A stretch of 64,000 nucleotides of DNA from sequence record OR769032.1; one strand, written 5' to 3'. The stretch's first letter is position 1, and each line of letters starts with the position of its first letter. Positions 34,651-37,521 of this stretch are shown here, piece by piece. Origin of the DNA: Escherichia phage JoYop. The notes under the pieces were generated by a model. The model had not been told where the DNA came from, did not search any database, and saw only the letters and a list, made by a program, of their open reading frames with translations. Made by a program: the position numbers and the translations under genes.

Positions 34651-35091
34651 TTAAAAGAGGCTGTTCATTATTCGGTAAAGTGAAGGACCCATCACATATT
34701 GCCACTGAGTACGAGGAATAAGAGCAAAAGCGTCCATCTCTGGAATCATAACGCCATCTTTATTTTCAAAATAAGACTCACAATGGCAATTTCTGAACAT
34801 CTCATGCTCTACTGGAATCATATAATAAAATAGCTGTAAGTCTTTATTACTAGAATATTTAAATACACCTAGGTCTTCTAGAAGGTCTGGATTATAATTA
34901 CTAAAACCAGTCTCTTCTAAGCATTCTCTTCGTGCTGCATCTAGTGCGTTTAAATCAGAATTTTCTACACGGCCCTTTGGAATATCCCAACGATGTGCCA
35001 TCATTCCAGGCTTACGAGAACCAGTAACCCGACCCATAAATAAATCTTTATCTTCTGTCATAAAGATAATACCAGCTGATAATGTTTTCAT
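34651..35091 (-). CDS. nudE: Nudix hydrolase NudE-like
   Basis: Nudix box ...GRVENSDLNALDAARRECLEETGF; ATG at 35091 in ATGA overlap with upstream stop. Confidence 0.7.
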   Translation of the reverse strand: MKTLSAGIIFMTEDKDLFMGRVTGSRKPGMMAHRWDIPKGRVENSDLNALDAARRECLEETGFSNYNPDLLEDLGVFKYSSNKDLQLFYYMIPVEHEMFRNCHCESYFENKDGVMIPEMDAFALIPRTQWQYVMGPSLYRIMNSLF

Positions 35092-35576
35092 TTTAATTTC
35101 CTGCATTCAGTGATAAAGTTATTTAAATTTTGAGTATATTTCTTTTCATCAAAAATCTTTTGCTGCCTACGTAAACGCCATGGCATTTCAATGAACACGC
35201 ACCATATTCCTGATAATATTGCTGCAGTAAAAATATTAACAAATATAGTACAAAGAGCCCAATCTCCTATTCTGTCCATTGGATTTTTTCCAAAGAAGTA
35301 AAATACGAATGATGACACAGGAAGACTGATAATATACCACAGAAGCATATTCTTGTCTGTAAACCAATCAGCGTTCGTTAACTTAGCGCGACCATTATGA
35401 ATACACACGAATTTATCATCTGTTACAGTAGATGGCTTAACTGGTTGATATCCCATTCTAAACTCCCTAATTAAACAGTTTTTCATATCTTCGGAACAGC
35501 CATTCCAGTCAACTCTATCAACTGAAATGCCATCATCCCCATCATCTAAATCATACCAACGAGTTTTTAAAATCAT
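35088..35576 (-). CDS. membrane protein with soluble N-terminal domain (member of tandem C-motif family)
   Basis: Track start is ATT; ATG at 35576; hydrophobic helices then C-terminus NFITECRKLK. Confidence 0.45.
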   Translation of the reverse strand: MILKTRWYDLDDGDDGISVDRVDWNGCSEDMKNCLIREFRMGYQPVKPSTVTDDKFVCIHNGRAKLTNADWFTDKNMLLWYIISLPVSSFVFYFFGKNPMDRIGDWALCTIFVNIFTAAILSGIWCVFIEMPWRLRRQQKIFDEKKYTQNLNNFITECRKLK

Positions 35577-35935
35577 CTGATTTTCCTGCAATCACTCACA
35601 AACTCTTTCATTGATTCATTTTCAATATAAGACATGTAGCTGTTATATTCTTTTAATTGTATTTTGTAATCCTTTTTTCTTTGCCAATTTATTTTAAAAT
35701 TATCATAATGAAAATATAACATGATACCAAAGAATGAAAATGATGAAATCGCTATAGTATAATGAAGTTCACTCCAAACTTCTGTTATAATTACTGTGCC
35801 ATCGATGTTTAAAATAAAACAGTCAATTAACAATCCAATAAGACTACCCGCAAGAGCTGCAGCCAACGCCACAGCAAAAATTAAAAATGACTCAGGAAAC
35901 GAATATTTGACTTTATTTAGTTTTGGCTTTTGCAT
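35573..35935 (-). CDS. two-TM membrane protein (tandem C-motif family)
   Basis: 120 aa; hydrophobic helices; C-terminus KEFVSDCRKIR; ATG start. Confidence 0.45.
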   Translation of the reverse strand: MQKPKLNKVKYSFPESFLIFAVALAAALAGSLIGLLIDCFILNIDGTVIITEVWSELHYTIAISSFSFFGIMLYFHYDNFKINWQRKKDYKIQLKEYNSYMSYIENESMKEFVSDCRKIR

Positions 35936-36309
35936 CGTGATTCCTTAACAAATTTCATAATTTCATCAAATTCATACGCAGCAAGTTTAAGCTGGTGTTC
36001 CTTTTTAATCTTTTTACACTGTGCTTTCCAATCGCGTATGCGTTTACGATAATGTCTTCCTTGATACCAGTATCCTACCCAATTTACAGGTACTAATAAA
36101 AATGGAACTATCATTGGAAGAATTAATGTTGACGCAAATATTATATTAGATTCAATATCAGTCATAACATCTATAACTATTCCAACCCCCAGTAGAATTA
36201 CAAATGATACAGCTATTACAGGACCTATTAATACATCAGTAGAAATTAGCTGGCGCTTTAATTCATACTTCAACGGTTTACTTGGAAGATACATTGATGG
36301 CTTTGACAT
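35917..36309 (-). CDS. two-TM membrane protein (tandem C-motif family)
   Basis: Track start TTG; ATG at 36309; C-terminus KFVKESRCKSQN. Confidence 0.45.
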   Translation of the reverse strand: MSKPSMYLPSKPLKYELKRQLISTDVLIGPVIAVSFVILLGVGIVIDVMTDIESNIIFASTLILPMIVPFLLVPVNWVGYWYQGRHYRKRIRDWKAQCKKIKKEHQLKLAAYEFDEIMKFVKESRCKSQN

Positions 36310-36886
36310 ATTCTCTACATTCCTTAACAAATTTTTCTAATAATAAATCGCTTTCAAAATTAGGATTTTCCACGAATTTATCAAAAAGATCATCAACAAT
36401 GGTTAAAATATTCTTTTTGCTAAGAATACGTTTATTTTCATGCTTCGTTTCAGAATCAACTATAAGAGTAAAGAAATATTTCTTGCCACGAAATTTTACA
36501 GTAGTATCAATATAAAATAAATTTGACTTTTGTAAATTACGTTTAAACCATGCGTCACTTAAACTATAAATGCCAAGATAATCATAATCGTCATTTAAAT
36601 AACAAACTGTCCATTCAGGAGAAATGAAATCAGTAAATTCAACATCAAAATCGCATGTCAATGAATGAATTGATTCAATACTTTTAATGAGTATTCCAGG
36701 ACGTATTAAAGACTTTTTACCTCTACAAAATCTTCCAGAAAGGCTTTCATCAGTTTCATATGAAGACCCCCAATAGTAATTACGTCCTTCTGCCATGCGT
36801 TTAAGAGCATTTAGTAATTGGTCTGGAACATCAACCTGTCTTTGGAACTCTTCAAACATTGAATTGAAATCACTTTGCATTTTCAT
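36278..36886 (-). CDS. hypothetical soluble protein sharing C-terminal motif with the downstream membrane proteins
   Basis: 202 aa; C-terminal LEKFVKECREYVKAIN. Confidence 0.45.
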   Translation of the reverse strand: MKMQSDFNSMFEEFQRQVDVPDQLLNALKRMAEGRNYYWGSSYETDESLSGRFCRGKKSLIRPGILIKSIESIHSLTCDFDVEFTDFISPEWTVCYLNDDYDYLGIYSLSDAWFKRNLQKSNLFYIDTTVKFRGKKYFFTLIVDSETKHENKRILSKKNILTIVDDLFDKFVENPNFESDLLLEKFVKECREYVKAINVSSK

Positions 36887-36906
36887 TCCTATTTACTCCA
36901 AGTAAT

Positions 36907-36922
36907 AGGGGCCGAAGCCCCT
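36907..36922 (-). terminator. GC hairpin (AGGGGC-TTCG-GCCCCT), terminator or RNA structure
   Basis: Perfect inverted repeat in short intergenic gap; no clear U-tract. Confidence 0.3.
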
Positions 36923-36927
36923 TATCA

Positions 36928-37521
36928 TTATTTCAGAGAATTAATGTATTCCTGAACATCGGCAGAGGTGGTTTCAACCCCAGAAATATTACCGTTAAAG
37001 GTTTCAACTCGAGCAAGAGTATCTTCAATATCAACCTTAGTCAGTGCTGCAATTTCAACTACATCATCAGCAGTACTAATTCCAAGGGCATTCGCTGCAC
37101 GAGTTTCACGGATATATTCCAATTTAACTGCAAGTTCTTGGCGAGCATCATCTAACTCAACTACTTTCTTGGCGATTTCAATTCGCATTTCAGCATAACC
37201 ATCAGCTTTAGTAGTTAACTGTTCAGCTGTTCGACGATATAACAAGCCGAGTTTAGCATGCATTGTTACATCTTGACCTTCGGAAAGAAGCTTACGAATT
37301 TCACGCTCTTTTGATTCGGCCTGCTTATTCTTTTCGACAATAAGTTCACGAATACGTTTTTCTTCATTAATAGATTTAACAGAAGCAGTTTTTAGGTCTT
37401 TAATTTTATCAAGTAGTTTTGCTGCTGCAGCAGTATACTGTTCTTCAACAGATAGATTTTTAGCCATAGCAGAACCAAGTTTAGTGCGAATAAACTCAAC
37501 AATTTTCTTCAGTGTGTTCAT
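36928..37521 (-). CDS. PspA/IM30-like coiled-coil protein (tentative)
   Basis: 197 aa, almost entirely heptad-like with A/E/K/R-rich segments reminiscent of phage-shock protein A. Confidence 0.4.

What the first reader, a model, noticed from the sequence alone, without database searches (positions are those of the whole stretch)
35088..36886. Four tandem genes sharing a C-terminal F-(V/I)-x-(E/D)-(C/S)-R motif encoded at overlapping gene junctions
Four consecutive genes end with closely related peptides: KFVKECREYV, KFVKESRCKS, KEFVSDCRKIR and NFITECRKLK. Three of the proteins are small two-helix membrane proteins, and each gene's 3' end overlaps the next gene's start by about 20-30 nt. For the last member, the codons for ECRK (GAATGCAGGAAA) also provide the Shine-Dalgarno for nudE. 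The motif may therefore be partly forced by a duplicated junction module (3' end plus ribosome binding site plus next start), marking serial tandem duplication with translational coupling. Small membrane proteins in T-even phages include superinfection-exclusion and lysis-timing factors.
Basis: partly seen in the sequence, partly recalled or inferred. Interest (0 to 1): 0.5.

Follow-up and report, generated by a model that had tools for sequence, protein, structure and literature searches.

The report
Shared protein tail doubling as ribosome site
Four neighbouring T4-type phage genes of unknown function (e.5, e.4, e.3, e.2) end in the same short protein tail, conserved across many related phages; its codons also provide the ribosome-binding site of the next gene, which suggests the four products share one partner or complex.

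Summary
On the minus strand, T4-type genes e.5 (36278-36886), e.4 (35917-36309), e.3 (35573-35935) and e.2 (35088-35576) all end in F-[VI]-x-[ED]-[CS]-R. In about 164 kb of this phage type, no other protein has this motif at its C-terminus.

It is not just a ribosome-binding-site artefact. In the same gene array downstream of e.6 in 12 lineages, the tail persists as [FW]-[VIL]-x-x-[C/aliphatic]-R. It uses four Arg and both Cys codons. The next gene's Shine-Dalgarno (SD) sits in different registers: x-E = AAG/GAG-GAA, R-K = AGG-AAA, or downstream of the motif. Rare codons (AAG, GAG, AGG) appear exactly where they create the SD, so the coding is genuinely dual.

e.4, e.3 and e.2 look like paralogous two-helix membrane proteins with cytoplasmic tails. 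Soluble e.5 shares only the tail.

The repeated TGCAGGAAA junction has produced a precise in-frame loss of e.2 in roughly 12% of Tequatroviruses.

Function is unknown, and a published T4 knock-down screen appears to show no laboratory fitness effect. My best inference is that the tail is a common cytoplasmic docking helix joining the translationally coupled products. The conserved upstream e.6 may take part; it gives weak, inconclusive PspA/Vipp1-like matches.

The parts
36278..36886 (-). e.5 (old name msp4): soluble 202-aa protein, first gene of the array. Its tail helix ends ...LLLEKFVKECREYVKAINVSSK.
   Evidence: ORF. phrog_2607 at E=6e-108. Near-identical cluster representatives carry PF26876 Phage_T4_Y06P. 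No hydrophobic segment. AF2 mean pLDDT 61, with helix 181-196 covering the tail.
36314..36331 (-). e.5 tail motif F186-V-K-E-C-R191 (TTT GTT AAG GAA TGT AGA). The K-E codons at 36320-36325 form AAGGAA, the SD for e.4.
   Evidence: F186, E189, C190, R191, E192 and Y193 are invariant in a 4-sequence, 3-genus alignment at only 23% overall identity.
35917..36309 (-). e.4 (msp5): 130-aa two-helix membrane protein. Overlaps e.5 by 32 nt.
   Evidence: phrog_2604. Hydrophobic segments at about 20-50 and 54-80. Net charge is +4 at the N-terminus and +9 at the C-terminus, consistent with N-in/C-in topology.
35935..35952 (-). e.4 tail motif F120-V-K-E-S-R125 (TTT GTT AAG GAA TCA CGA). The K-E codons at 35941-35946 form AAGGAA, the SD for e.3. 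The A of e.3's ATG (35935) is the last base of the Arg codon.
   Evidence: The fifth motif position is S, I or V in e.4 orthologues.
35573..35935 (-). e.3 (msp6): 120-aa membrane protein, paralogue of e.4. Overlaps e.4 by 19 nt.
   Evidence: phrog_2330.
35585..35602 (-). e.3 tail motif F112-V-S-D-C-R117 (TTT GTG AGT GAT TGC AGG). The R-K codons at 35582-35587 form AGGAAA, the SD for e.2. The ATGA stop/start overlap is at 35573-35576.
   Evidence: AGG makes up 3.8% of Arg codons in this window.
35088..35576 (-). e.2 (msp7): 162 aa. A conserved N-terminal domain of about 75 aa is followed by two hydrophobic helices and the tail.
   Evidence: phrog_2203. Homologues carry PF26896 Phage_T4_Y06M. 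AF2 mean pLDDT 69; the second membrane helix runs on as one helix (103-160) to the C-terminus.
35100..35117 (-). e.2 tail motif F154-I-T-E-C-R159 (TTT ATC ACT GAA TGC AGG). The R-K codons at 35097-35102 form AGGAAA, the SD for nudE. The ATGA overlap is at 35088-35091.
   Evidence: F154, I155, E157, C158, R159 and K160 are invariant in 26 diverse e.2 homologues.
35582..35590 (-). Direct repeat copy 1, TGCAGGAAA, at the e.3/e.2 junction.
   Evidence: Crossover site of the natural e.2 deletion.
35097..35105 (-). Direct repeat copy 2, TGCAGGAAA, at the e.2/nudE junction.
   Evidence: e.2-less phages carry a chimeric e.3 tail...FVSDCRKLK*, fused by ATGA to nudE.
34651..35091 (-). nudE (Nudix hydrolase): the last cistron fed by the chain of overlapping junctions.
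   Evidence: Pfam NUDIX at E=2.6e-13. The start at ATG 35091 is preceded by AGGAAA. The alternative ATG at 35106 lacks an SD.
36928..37521 (-). e.6 (msp3): a conserved helical protein that always sits directly upstream of the array. It may be functionally linked.
   Evidence: Present in 1099 phage records. Precedes the array in all lineages sampled. Gives weak PspA/Vipp1-like matches.
36905..36925 (-). GGGGC-UUCG-GCCCC hairpin between e.6 and e.5. The old T4 record shows no promoter between here and nudE.
   Evidence: The stem_loop and promoter features of L13089 place promoters only upstream of e.8, e.7 and e.6.

Best explanation
These are the T4-type early genes e.5, e.4, e.3 and e.2, followed by nudE.

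SHOWN
1. All four proteins end in a short tail with core [F/W]-[V/I/L]-x-x-[C or aliphatic]-R. The AF2 models predict it helical for e.5 and e.2. The tail is conserved at the protein level in the same gene array downstream of e.6 in at least 12 T-even-like lineages.
2. e.4, e.3 and the C-terminal half of e.2 look like paralogous hairpin membrane proteins. Charge distribution places the tail in the cytoplasm. e.5 is a soluble protein from an unrelated family that shares only the tail.
3. The same codons are recruited as the SD and start region of the next cistron, in different registers. The rare codons AAG, GAG and AGG are chosen exactly where they make AGGA(A). The tail is therefore dual-coded, and the five cistrons form a chain of overlapping stop/start junctions.
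4. The repeated tail junctions act as short direct repeats. They have caused a precise in-frame loss of e.2. The number and order of the membrane genes vary between genera.

INFERRED
5. The tail is a common cytoplasmic docking helix. Most likely it brings the co-translated products into one inner-membrane-associated complex, or onto one shared partner; e.6 is a candidate.
6. Translational coupling then sets stoichiometry.

The module is accessory under laboratory conditions.
For: Identity and motif:
- ORFs, motif and junctions.
- The motif is unique to these four C-termini in about 164 kb.

Conservation across lineages:
- Mosigvirus FIMECR / FVKEIR / FIKECRK*.
- Gaprivervirus FIAECR / FIKEVR / FIKECKS*.
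- Dhakavirus e.2 FI[KE]ECRK*.
- Kanagawa-, Mosuguk-, Winkler-, Teguna-, Roskilde- and Biquartavirus, a Klebsiella phage, and a 28%-GC metagenomic contig.
- The tail is the best-conserved block in e.5 and in e.2.

Protein-level rather than RNA-level constraint:
- Arg is encoded by AGA, AGG, CGA and CGT; Cys by TGT and TGC.
- F is replaced by W, and C by V/I/M/L/A.
- No junction RNA structure: z-scores from -0.9 to +1.0.

Dual coding:
- When x-E forms the SD, x is AAG (7 of 7 Lys) or GAG. The window's codon usage is 22% AAG and 15% GAG.
- R is AGG (3.8% usage) in both junctions where R-K forms the SD.
- Tail length co-varies with the SD register in all e.2 and e.3 clusters.

Paralogy.
Topology and helicity.
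e.2 deletion at TGCAGGAAA.
In-frame e.4::e.2 fusion at a TCCTGT microhomology.
One transcription unit.
No apparent fitness effect of knock-down in T4: PMC11879866 supplements.
Against: - There is no direct evidence for any interaction.
- The Biquartavirus array has an e.5-like tail (FIDYCR) with no adjacent membrane partners. This argues against an obligate e.5-membrane protein complex and for an outside partner.
- e.2 is often lost, truncated or fused, including in the T4 reference. Not every member is needed.
- The Cys is not conserved in the e.4 lineage.
- Amphipathicity of the tails is only modestly above shuffles (p = 0.03-0.16).
- SD constraint inflates conservation at the x-E and R-K positions.
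- Cross-family BLAST links between membrane proteins may be helped by compositional bias.
Confidence: 0.7

Rival explanations
1. The motif is a by-product of a duplicated junction module (3' end plus SD plus start). The peptide itself has no function, and its conservation reflects RNA-level needs of translation initiation.
For: The SD of every downstream gene lies within or next to the motif. Rare SD-forming codons are selected there. The junctions fall into two near-identical nucleotide pairs.
Against: - The SD register differs between junctions: x-E, R-K, or downstream of the motif.
- In Gaprivervirus e.5 and the metagenomic e.5a, the SD lies wholly outside the motif, yet F-[VI]-x-x-C-R is kept.
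- F, [VI] and C are never part of the SD.
- Four Arg codons and two Cys codons are used.
- F->W and C->V/I/M/L/A substitutions preserve residue character, not sequence.
Confidence: 0.07
2. The tail is a docking peptide for one external partner rather than a device for mutual assembly. The partner could be a host cytoplasmic or membrane-associated factor, or a phage protein encoded elsewhere. Each protein would then use the tail independently.
For: - An e.5-like protein with the tail exists without adjacent membrane partners in Biquartavirus.
- e.2 can be lost without loss of the others.
- The members have diverse bodies but the same tail.
Against: - No candidate partner is identified.
- The strict co-linearity, stop/start overlap, and co-occurrence of a soluble protein with 1-3 hairpin proteins in 10 of 12 lineages fit a joint complex better.
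Confidence: 0.25
3. The tail is an inherited structural helix of a paralogous family with no shared interaction role. e.5 acquired it once by illegitimate recombination at a junction.
For: - The membrane proteins appear paralogous.
- The e.2 deletion shows that tails can be swapped by junction recombination.
Against: The tail is the most conserved segment in each family across deep divergence, including unrelated e.5, where C-R is invariant in all lineages sampled. A relic would have decayed.
Confidence: 0.1
4. The resemblance is a chance similarity of four C-termini.
For: The motif was defined after seeing it.
Against: The motif has no other C-terminal occurrence in about 164 kb. It is conserved in orthologues of 12 lineages.
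Confidence: 0.01

Closest known systems
Translationally coupled, overlapping cistrons (ATGA-type stop/start overlaps with the SD inside the upstream gene), common in T4 and in bacterial operons
   Same: e.3/e.2 and e.2/nudE overlap by ATGA. e.5/e.4 and e.4/e.3 overlap by 32 and 19 nt. Every SD lies inside the upstream coding sequence.
   Different: Here the SD-bearing codons sit inside a conserved peptide motif that recurs at four successive gene ends, and the SD register shifts between lineages. Coupling itself was not measured.
PeSL (promoter-early stem-loop) cassettes that mediate modular shuffling in T4-type genomes (PMC2839356, PMC4122927)
   Same: Short conserved sequences at gene borders in a variable region. 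Gene gain, loss and re-ordering occur exactly at those borders: the e.2 deletion, and different neighbours after e.3 and e.2 in different genera.
   Different: PeSLs are intergenic promoter-plus-terminator motifs. These junctions are coding, have no intergenic space, no promoter in the old T4 annotation and no significant hairpin. The recombining repeat is only 9 nt.
Psp system of E. coli: PspA (peripheral coiled-coil, ESCRT-III superfamily) with the small inner-membrane proteins PspB and PspC
   Same: A conserved helical protein of about 200 aa (e.6) is followed in the same transcription unit by small inner-membrane proteins with cytoplasmic C-terminal helices. e.6 gives co-linear sub-threshold matches to Vipp1/PspA.
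   Different: None of the e.6 matches is significant: E=0.024, 20.4 bits against a cut-off of 33.9, and hhalign probability 4%. e.4, e.3 and e.2 have two membrane helices and no detectable similarity to PspB or PspC. This is an analogy only.
Pfam families Phage_T4_Y06M (PF26896, e.2), Phage_T4_Y06P (PF26876, e.5), PF26873 (e.4), and PHROGs 2203 / 2330 / 2604 / 2607
   Same: The four genes are members, so the genes themselves are catalogued.
   Different: These entries record families of unknown function. As far as I could find, nothing records the shared tail, its dual coding or the array architecture.
T4 small membrane or periplasmic proteins Imm, Sp, RI, RIII and the holin T
   Same: Small early or accessory phage proteins associated with the inner membrane.
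   Different: No sequence or profile similarity. No functional data link them.

Membership tests
PHROG families of T4 e.5 / e.4 / e.3 / e.2 (phrog_2607, 2604, 2330, 2203) | Full-length profile match. | tested here: met
   E-values 6e-108, 3e-69, 6e-59 and 7e-78, each covering the whole protein.
Pfam Phage_T4_Y06M (PF26896) for e.2 and Phage_T4_Y06P (PF26876) for e.5 | Pfam hit above threshold. | tested here: inconclusive
   The local Pfam-A scan gave no hit for any of the four proteins. However, cluster representatives 94-98% identical to the window proteins carry these precomputed domains. Membership is therefore indirect but very likely.
Translationally coupled overlapping cistrons | The stop of the upstream gene overlaps or abuts the start of the downstream gene, with the SD inside the upstream gene. 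| tested here: met
   Overlaps of 32, 19, 4 and 4 nt. AAGGAA or AGGAAA lies 5-10 nt upstream of each ATG.
Translationally coupled overlapping cistrons | Downstream translation depends on upstream translation. | not testable with these tools
   Needs reporter fusions or ribosome profiling. No RBS-sequestering hairpin is predicted.
PeSL mobile regulatory cassettes | An intergenic early promoter plus stem-loop terminator flanking the variable gene. | tested here: not met
   There is no intergenic space at the four junctions. Folding z-scores range from -0.9 to +1.0. The promoter scan is no better than shuffles: 22 sites against 16.8 +/- 4.5. The old T4 annotation places promoters only upstream of e.8, e.7 and e.6.
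Tandem paralogue array (e.4, e.3, e.2 C-terminal half) | Detectable homology beyond the motif, and the same architecture. | tested here: met
   e.3 against e.4 over the full length, E=7e-4. hhalign gives 81.5% over 41 columns and 84.9% over 20 columns. Transitive BLASTP links include Dha_e2-Gap_e3 at 1e-4, Dha_e2-PM2_3 at 2e-4 and Gap_e4-Gap_e3 at 4e-3. Compositional bias in membrane segments is a caveat.
Tandem paralogue array including e.5 | Homology of e.5 to the membrane proteins beyond the tail. | tested here: not met
   BLASTP of e.5 against e.4 finds nothing. The only cross-link is a 25-residue tail match (Teg_3 against Win_1, E=0.007).
Sulfurtransferase (database label on e.3 / e.4 in several records) | A rhodanese, TusA or other sulfurtransferase domain. 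| tested here: not met
   No Pfam or NCBIfam hit. These proteins are 120-130 aa and largely membrane-embedded.
Bfi1 family immunity protein (NF053699) | Score above the curated cut-off of 100 bits. | tested here: not met
   e.4 scores 19.2 bits, E=9e-4, over its membrane segments.
PspA / IM30 / Vipp1 (ESCRT-III superfamily), for the neighbouring e.6 | Significant profile match or shared fold. | tested here: inconclusive
   - e.6 profile against PDB: Vipp1 chains are the top hits, E=0.024, co-linear 9-140 against 8-141.
- GAP161 orthologue against PF04012: E=4.2e-4, 20.4 bits, below the 33.9 cut-off.
- hhalign against a 3-sequence PspA alignment: E=0.01 but probability 4%.
- Against E. coli PspA alone: not significant.
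Superinfection-exclusion or lysis-timing proteins (Imm, Sp, RI, RIII, T) | Sequence or profile similarity to those families. | tested here: not met
   No such Pfam or PHROG hits. Function was not tested.

The most novel reading that the evidence does not exclude
e.6 through e.2 form a conserved, previously unrecognised T-even inner-membrane module. A PspA/Vipp1-like protein (e.6) and a soluble subunit (e.5) would be recruited to paralogous hairpin membrane proteins (e.4, e.3, e.2) through the shared [FW]-[VIL]-x-x-Phi-R tail. Dual-coded, translationally coupled junctions would enforce co-synthesis. This would amount to a phage-encoded Psp-like system for membrane stress or remodelling.
Probability: 0.15. 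Interest if true: 0.8.

Novelty: new variant of a known kind. Interest (0 to 1): 0.5.

Why it matters
T4 is the best-studied large phage, yet about half its genes have no known function. The e.2-e.6 block is one of those blanks.

A shared tail conserved across many genera gives a concrete handle on it. It predicts one partner or one complex for four orphan proteins. It defines point mutants to test (F, Phi, R). It also points to e.6 as a candidate hub.

The locus is a clean natural example of dual coding. A functional peptide motif and a ribosome-binding site share the same codons, with visible selection for rare synonymous codons and a register that has shifted during evolution.

Finally, it shows how such repeated dual-use junctions make a gene array prone to exact, in-frame loss or fusion of cassettes.

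Tried and rejected
1. RNA structure at the junctions: folding of four 101-nt junction segments gave z-scores from -0.9 to +1.0. Rejected.

2. Function from profiles: Pfam, NCBIfam and PDB sequence searches of the four proteins gave nothing meaningful.

4. Structure of e.2: mean pLDDT 69, with the N-terminal domain poorly predicted. No fold search was attempted.

5. Exhaustive HMM search of the e.5 profile in 1.84 billion representatives: only 6 hits, all phage relatives. This did lead to the informative metagenomic contig L022.

6. Scan of IMG/VR for the archetypal junction TTYRTHAARGARTGYMGNAARTGA: 6 loci, consisting of known relatives plus two short probable chance matches. There is no evidence that the junction is a mobile module in other phage groups.

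7. Whether the e.2 deletion is recurrent: the two e.2-less phages examined are closest to each other in e.3 (97.8%) but not in nudE (95.5%). With T4-type mosaicism this cannot separate one event from several.

8. Literature: gene-name searches were noisy. The Miller 2003 review is not held. No paper on the motif, or on e.6 as PspA-like, was found.

9. e.6 as a loose member of the tail set (YINSLK*): the loosest pattern matches 12 of 250 ORFs, so it is not compelling.

10. tblastn of E. coli PspA against phages: no T4-like hit.
Full report
WHAT THE WINDOW IS

The 2-kb region is 98% identical to Escherichia phage PaulHMueller and about 93% identical to T4. It matches 509 Tequatrovirus-type records. 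Annotated relatives name the genes e.6, e.5, e.4, e.3, e.2 and nudE. An old T4 record calls them msp3 to msp8. That record places promoters only upstream of e.8, e.7 and e.6, with a stem-loop after e.6. All genes are on the minus strand.

CHECKING THE OBSERVATION

- e.5: 36278-36886, ...EKFVKECREYVKAINVSSK*
- e.4: 35917-36309, ...MKFVKESRCKSQN*
- e.3: 35573-35935, ...KEFVSDCRKIR*
- e.2: 35088-35576, ...NNFITECRKLK*

The strict motif F[VI].[ED][CS]R occurs five times in all six-frame segments of the 64-kb window. Four are these C-termini and one is an internal NrdH site. It does not occur in a further 100 kb of the closest relative's genome. A broader pattern, [FW][VIL]..[CVIMLA]R in the last 18 residues, also picks out only this cluster among about 250 ORFs. 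The 30-nt motif segments share 14-21 identities against a background of 8.8 +/- 2.6.

Two details need correction. The overlaps are 32 and 19 nt for e.5/e.4 and e.4/e.3. They are only ATGA (4 nt) for e.3/e.2 and e.2/nudE when the ATGs preceded by an SD are used. In e.5 the motif ends 11 residues before the stop.

ANATOMY OF THE JUNCTIONS

Two junction types exist in the window.
- In e.5/e.4 and e.4/e.3, the shared string AAATTTGTTAAGGAAT places the SD (AAGGAA) in the K-E codons of the motif.
- In e.3/e.2 and e.2/nudE, the shared string TGCAGGAAA-N5-ATGA places the SD (AGGAAA) in the R-K codons. The tail is two codons longer.

In Mosigvirus e.3, Gaprivervirus e.3 and Dhakavirus e.2, the tail is F-I-K-E-C-R-K* or a close variant (Gaprivervirus: F-I-K-E-C-K-S*). 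It is encoded TTT ATT AAG GAA TGY MGN AAA TGA (Gaprivervirus...TGT AAA TCA TGA): SD, 8-nt spacer and ATGA in one stretch. I predicted that the common Dhakavirus variant F-I-E-E-C-R-K* would use GAG for the first Glu, making GAGGAA. It does.

In the window's long ORFs, AAG is 22% of Lys codons, GAG is 15% of Glu codons and AGG is 3.8% of Arg codons. Yet AAG is used in 7 of 7 SD-forming Lys positions, and AGG in both SD-forming Arg positions. In all e.2 and e.3 protein clusters, short tails (..CRK*) go with K or E at position 3, and long tails (..CRK[LI][KR]*) go with T, S, N or I. So synonymous sites are selected for the SD.

No junction shows unusual RNA structure.

THE MOTIF IS A PROTEIN FEATURE

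Across the junctions, Arg is encoded by AGA, AGG, CGA and CGT, and Cys by TGT and TGC.

Using the well-conserved e.6 (1099 phage records) as an anchor, I read the genes downstream of it in eight more lineages and in a 28%-GC metagenomic contig found through the e.5 profile search.

In all but Pseudotevenvirus, the gene after e.6 is a soluble e.5-family protein of 93-299 aa ending in F-[VI]-x-x-C-R. The variants seen are FVDQCR, FVESCR, FIKYCR, FVKMCR, FIDQCR, FIDYCR, FINMCR, and FVEYCR plus FVKYCR in a tandem pair.

In all of those lineages except Biquartavirus, it is followed by one to three small two-helix proteins. In the Klebsiella phage Roth67 an e.2-like fourth small protein also follows. 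Their tails read FIKNVR, FIDDCR, FIESAR, FIKNMR, FVKEVR, WIRSCR, WIKEMK, FIKECR, FISECR, FVTYCR, WVKQLR, FLKEIR, WVGDIR and FAQEVR.

F->W and C->V/I/M/L/A keep residue character, not nucleotide sequence. In several of these junctions the SD lies downstream of the motif.

The tail is the best-conserved block of e.5 at 23% overall identity. It is invariant in 26 diverse e.2 homologues. The dual use of the codons is.

RELATIONSHIPS AMONG THE FOUR PROTEINS

- e.3 and e.4 align over their full length (E=7e-4).
- Profile comparisons align the last 41 residues (e.3/e.4) and the last 20 residues (e.2/e.3) at 81-85% probability.
- An all-against-all BLASTP of 38 array proteins links e.2's C-terminal half to e.3-type proteins, and e.4 to e.3, through intermediates. 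It unites the e.5-like proteins into one divergent family.
- e.5 shares only the tail with the others.
- Hydropathy and charge suggest N-in/C-in hairpins with cytoplasmic tails.
- The AF2 models are low-confidence. They predict the tail as a helix in e.5 (residues 181-196) and as a continuation of the second membrane helix in e.2.
- The conserved residues fall on an a/d-type spacing, [LM]-x-x-F-[VI]-x-x-[C/Phi]. This is my own reading of the sequences.

EVOLUTIONARY BEHAVIOUR

About 60 of roughly 500 Tequatrovirus records lack e.2 exactly. These include UFV-AREG1, a Yersinia phage and the T2 records. In them e.3 ends ...FVSDCRKLK*, and its stop overlaps nudE's ATG. The crossover therefore lies inside the 9-nt repeat TGCAGGAAA, producing a chimeric but motif-preserving tail.

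Phage UFV05 (and, judging from a partial e.2 match, probably UFV10) carries an in-frame e.4-N::e.2-C fusion at a TCCTGT microhomology. In the T4 reference, e.2 is only 309 nt.

Gene order differs between genera: in phage PM2 it is e.5, e.3-like, e.3-like, e.4-like. The genes that follow e.3 or e.2 also differ between genera. The Klebsiella phage keeps the contiguous order e.5-e.4-e.3-e.2-orf78-nudE, so the absence of e.2 elsewhere is probably derived.

Whether the deletion arose once or repeatedly could not be decided.

FUNCTION

In the CRISPRi-ART screen of T4, the genes are listed as of unknown function. The guides displayed for nudE and e.2-e.6 are labelled 'Not Fit' (PMC11879866 supplements). 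I read this as no significant fitness effect in the laboratory.

My best inference is that the tail is a shared cytoplasmic docking helix. It would either assemble the co-translated products into one membrane-associated complex or bind one common partner. The Biquartavirus case, with an e.5-like tail but no membrane partners, favours an external or e.6 partner.

e.6 gives three co-linear but sub-threshold matches to PspA / IM30 / Vipp1. It gives none against E. coli PspA alone. This is a lead, not a finding. If true, the block would resemble PspA with PspB and PspC.

VERDICT

The feature is real, conserved and dual-coded. The genes are catalogued orphans, and I found no description of the shared tail or its coding arrangement. 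It is a new variant of known themes: tandem paralogues, overlapping coupled cistrons, and border-mediated shuffling. Interest is moderate.

Noticed in passing
window 36928-37521 (minus), e.6: e.6 always sits directly upstream of the array and is much better conserved than it (1099 phage records). It gives co-linear but sub-threshold matches to PspA / IM30 / Vipp1: PDB profile E=0.024; PF04012 E=4.2e-4 for the GAP161 orthologue; hhalign E=0.01 with probability 4%. Its own C-terminus, ..EYINSLK*, loosely fits the tail pattern, but 12 of 250 ORFs do too.
   Followed up: partly
L004 2857-3651; L007 3191-4453; L027 4710-5545; L028 5407-5718; L030 4832-5391; L031 4553-5060: In Mosig-, Gapriver-, Kanagawa-, Mosuguk-, Winkler- and Tegunavirus, the gene after the last tail-motif gene starts a second tandem family of small soluble proteins (74-105 aa). 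All end in G-x-W-[VI]-S-S-S-x-x-C* or ..PSSC*. The family is absent from the window and from 100 kb of its closest relative.
   Followed up: partly
L005 2501-2821 (phage UFV05): A natural in-frame fusion of the e.4 N-terminus to the e.2 C-terminal half, deleting e.3. The join is at a 6-nt microhomology (TCCTGT) in the first membrane helix.
   Followed up: yes
L001 1589-2076; L026 2927-3235 (T4): In T4 itself e.2 is annotated as only 309 nt (102 aa). The rest sits in another frame, so the reference phage seems to carry a broken e.2, whereas the window's e.2 is intact (162 aa).
   Followed up: partly
L022 507-1662 (metagenomic contig, 28% GC): Two e.5-family paralogues in tandem (195 and 188 aa, 30% identical). 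Both end in F-V-x-Y-C-R. They are followed by two hairpin proteins with FAQEVR and FIESARK* tails.
   Followed up: yes
window 36905-36925 and 36896-36899: A GGGGC-UUCG-GCCCC tetraloop hairpin lies between e.6 and e.5. The e.5 leader also contains GGAG. From my own knowledge, not tested here, GGAG is the motif cut by T4 RegB in early-gene ribosome sites.
   Followed up: no
window 35091 vs 35106 (nudE), 35576 vs 35591 (e.2), 36886 vs 36880 (e.5): The start codons are ambiguous. Public annotations differ: nudE is 146 or 151 aa, and e.5 is 199-204 aa. In each case only one candidate start has a well-spaced SD.
   Followed up: partly
public records of e.3, e.4, e.5 and e.6 homologues: The product names 'sulfurtransferase' (e.3, e.4), 'putative phosphoserine phosphatase' (e.5), 'host specificity protein' (e.6) and 'DNA primase' (one e.3) are not supported by any profile search run here. 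They look like propagated mis-annotations.
   Followed up: partly
L016 1526-1549 (minus; 222-kb IMG/VR contig): An exact FIKECRK*-ATG junction sits upstream of a 509-aa gene, but its upstream reading frame is only 12 codons long. It could be a relic or chance.
   Followed up: no
L013 3492-3728; L019 4591-4827; L029 5195-5431: A 78-aa acidic protein (MSIAIYIKSE... in Dhakavirus) lies between e.2 and nudE in Dhakavirus and the Klebsiella phage. It is absent in Tequatrovirus, where e.2 abuts nudE directly.
   Followed up: no
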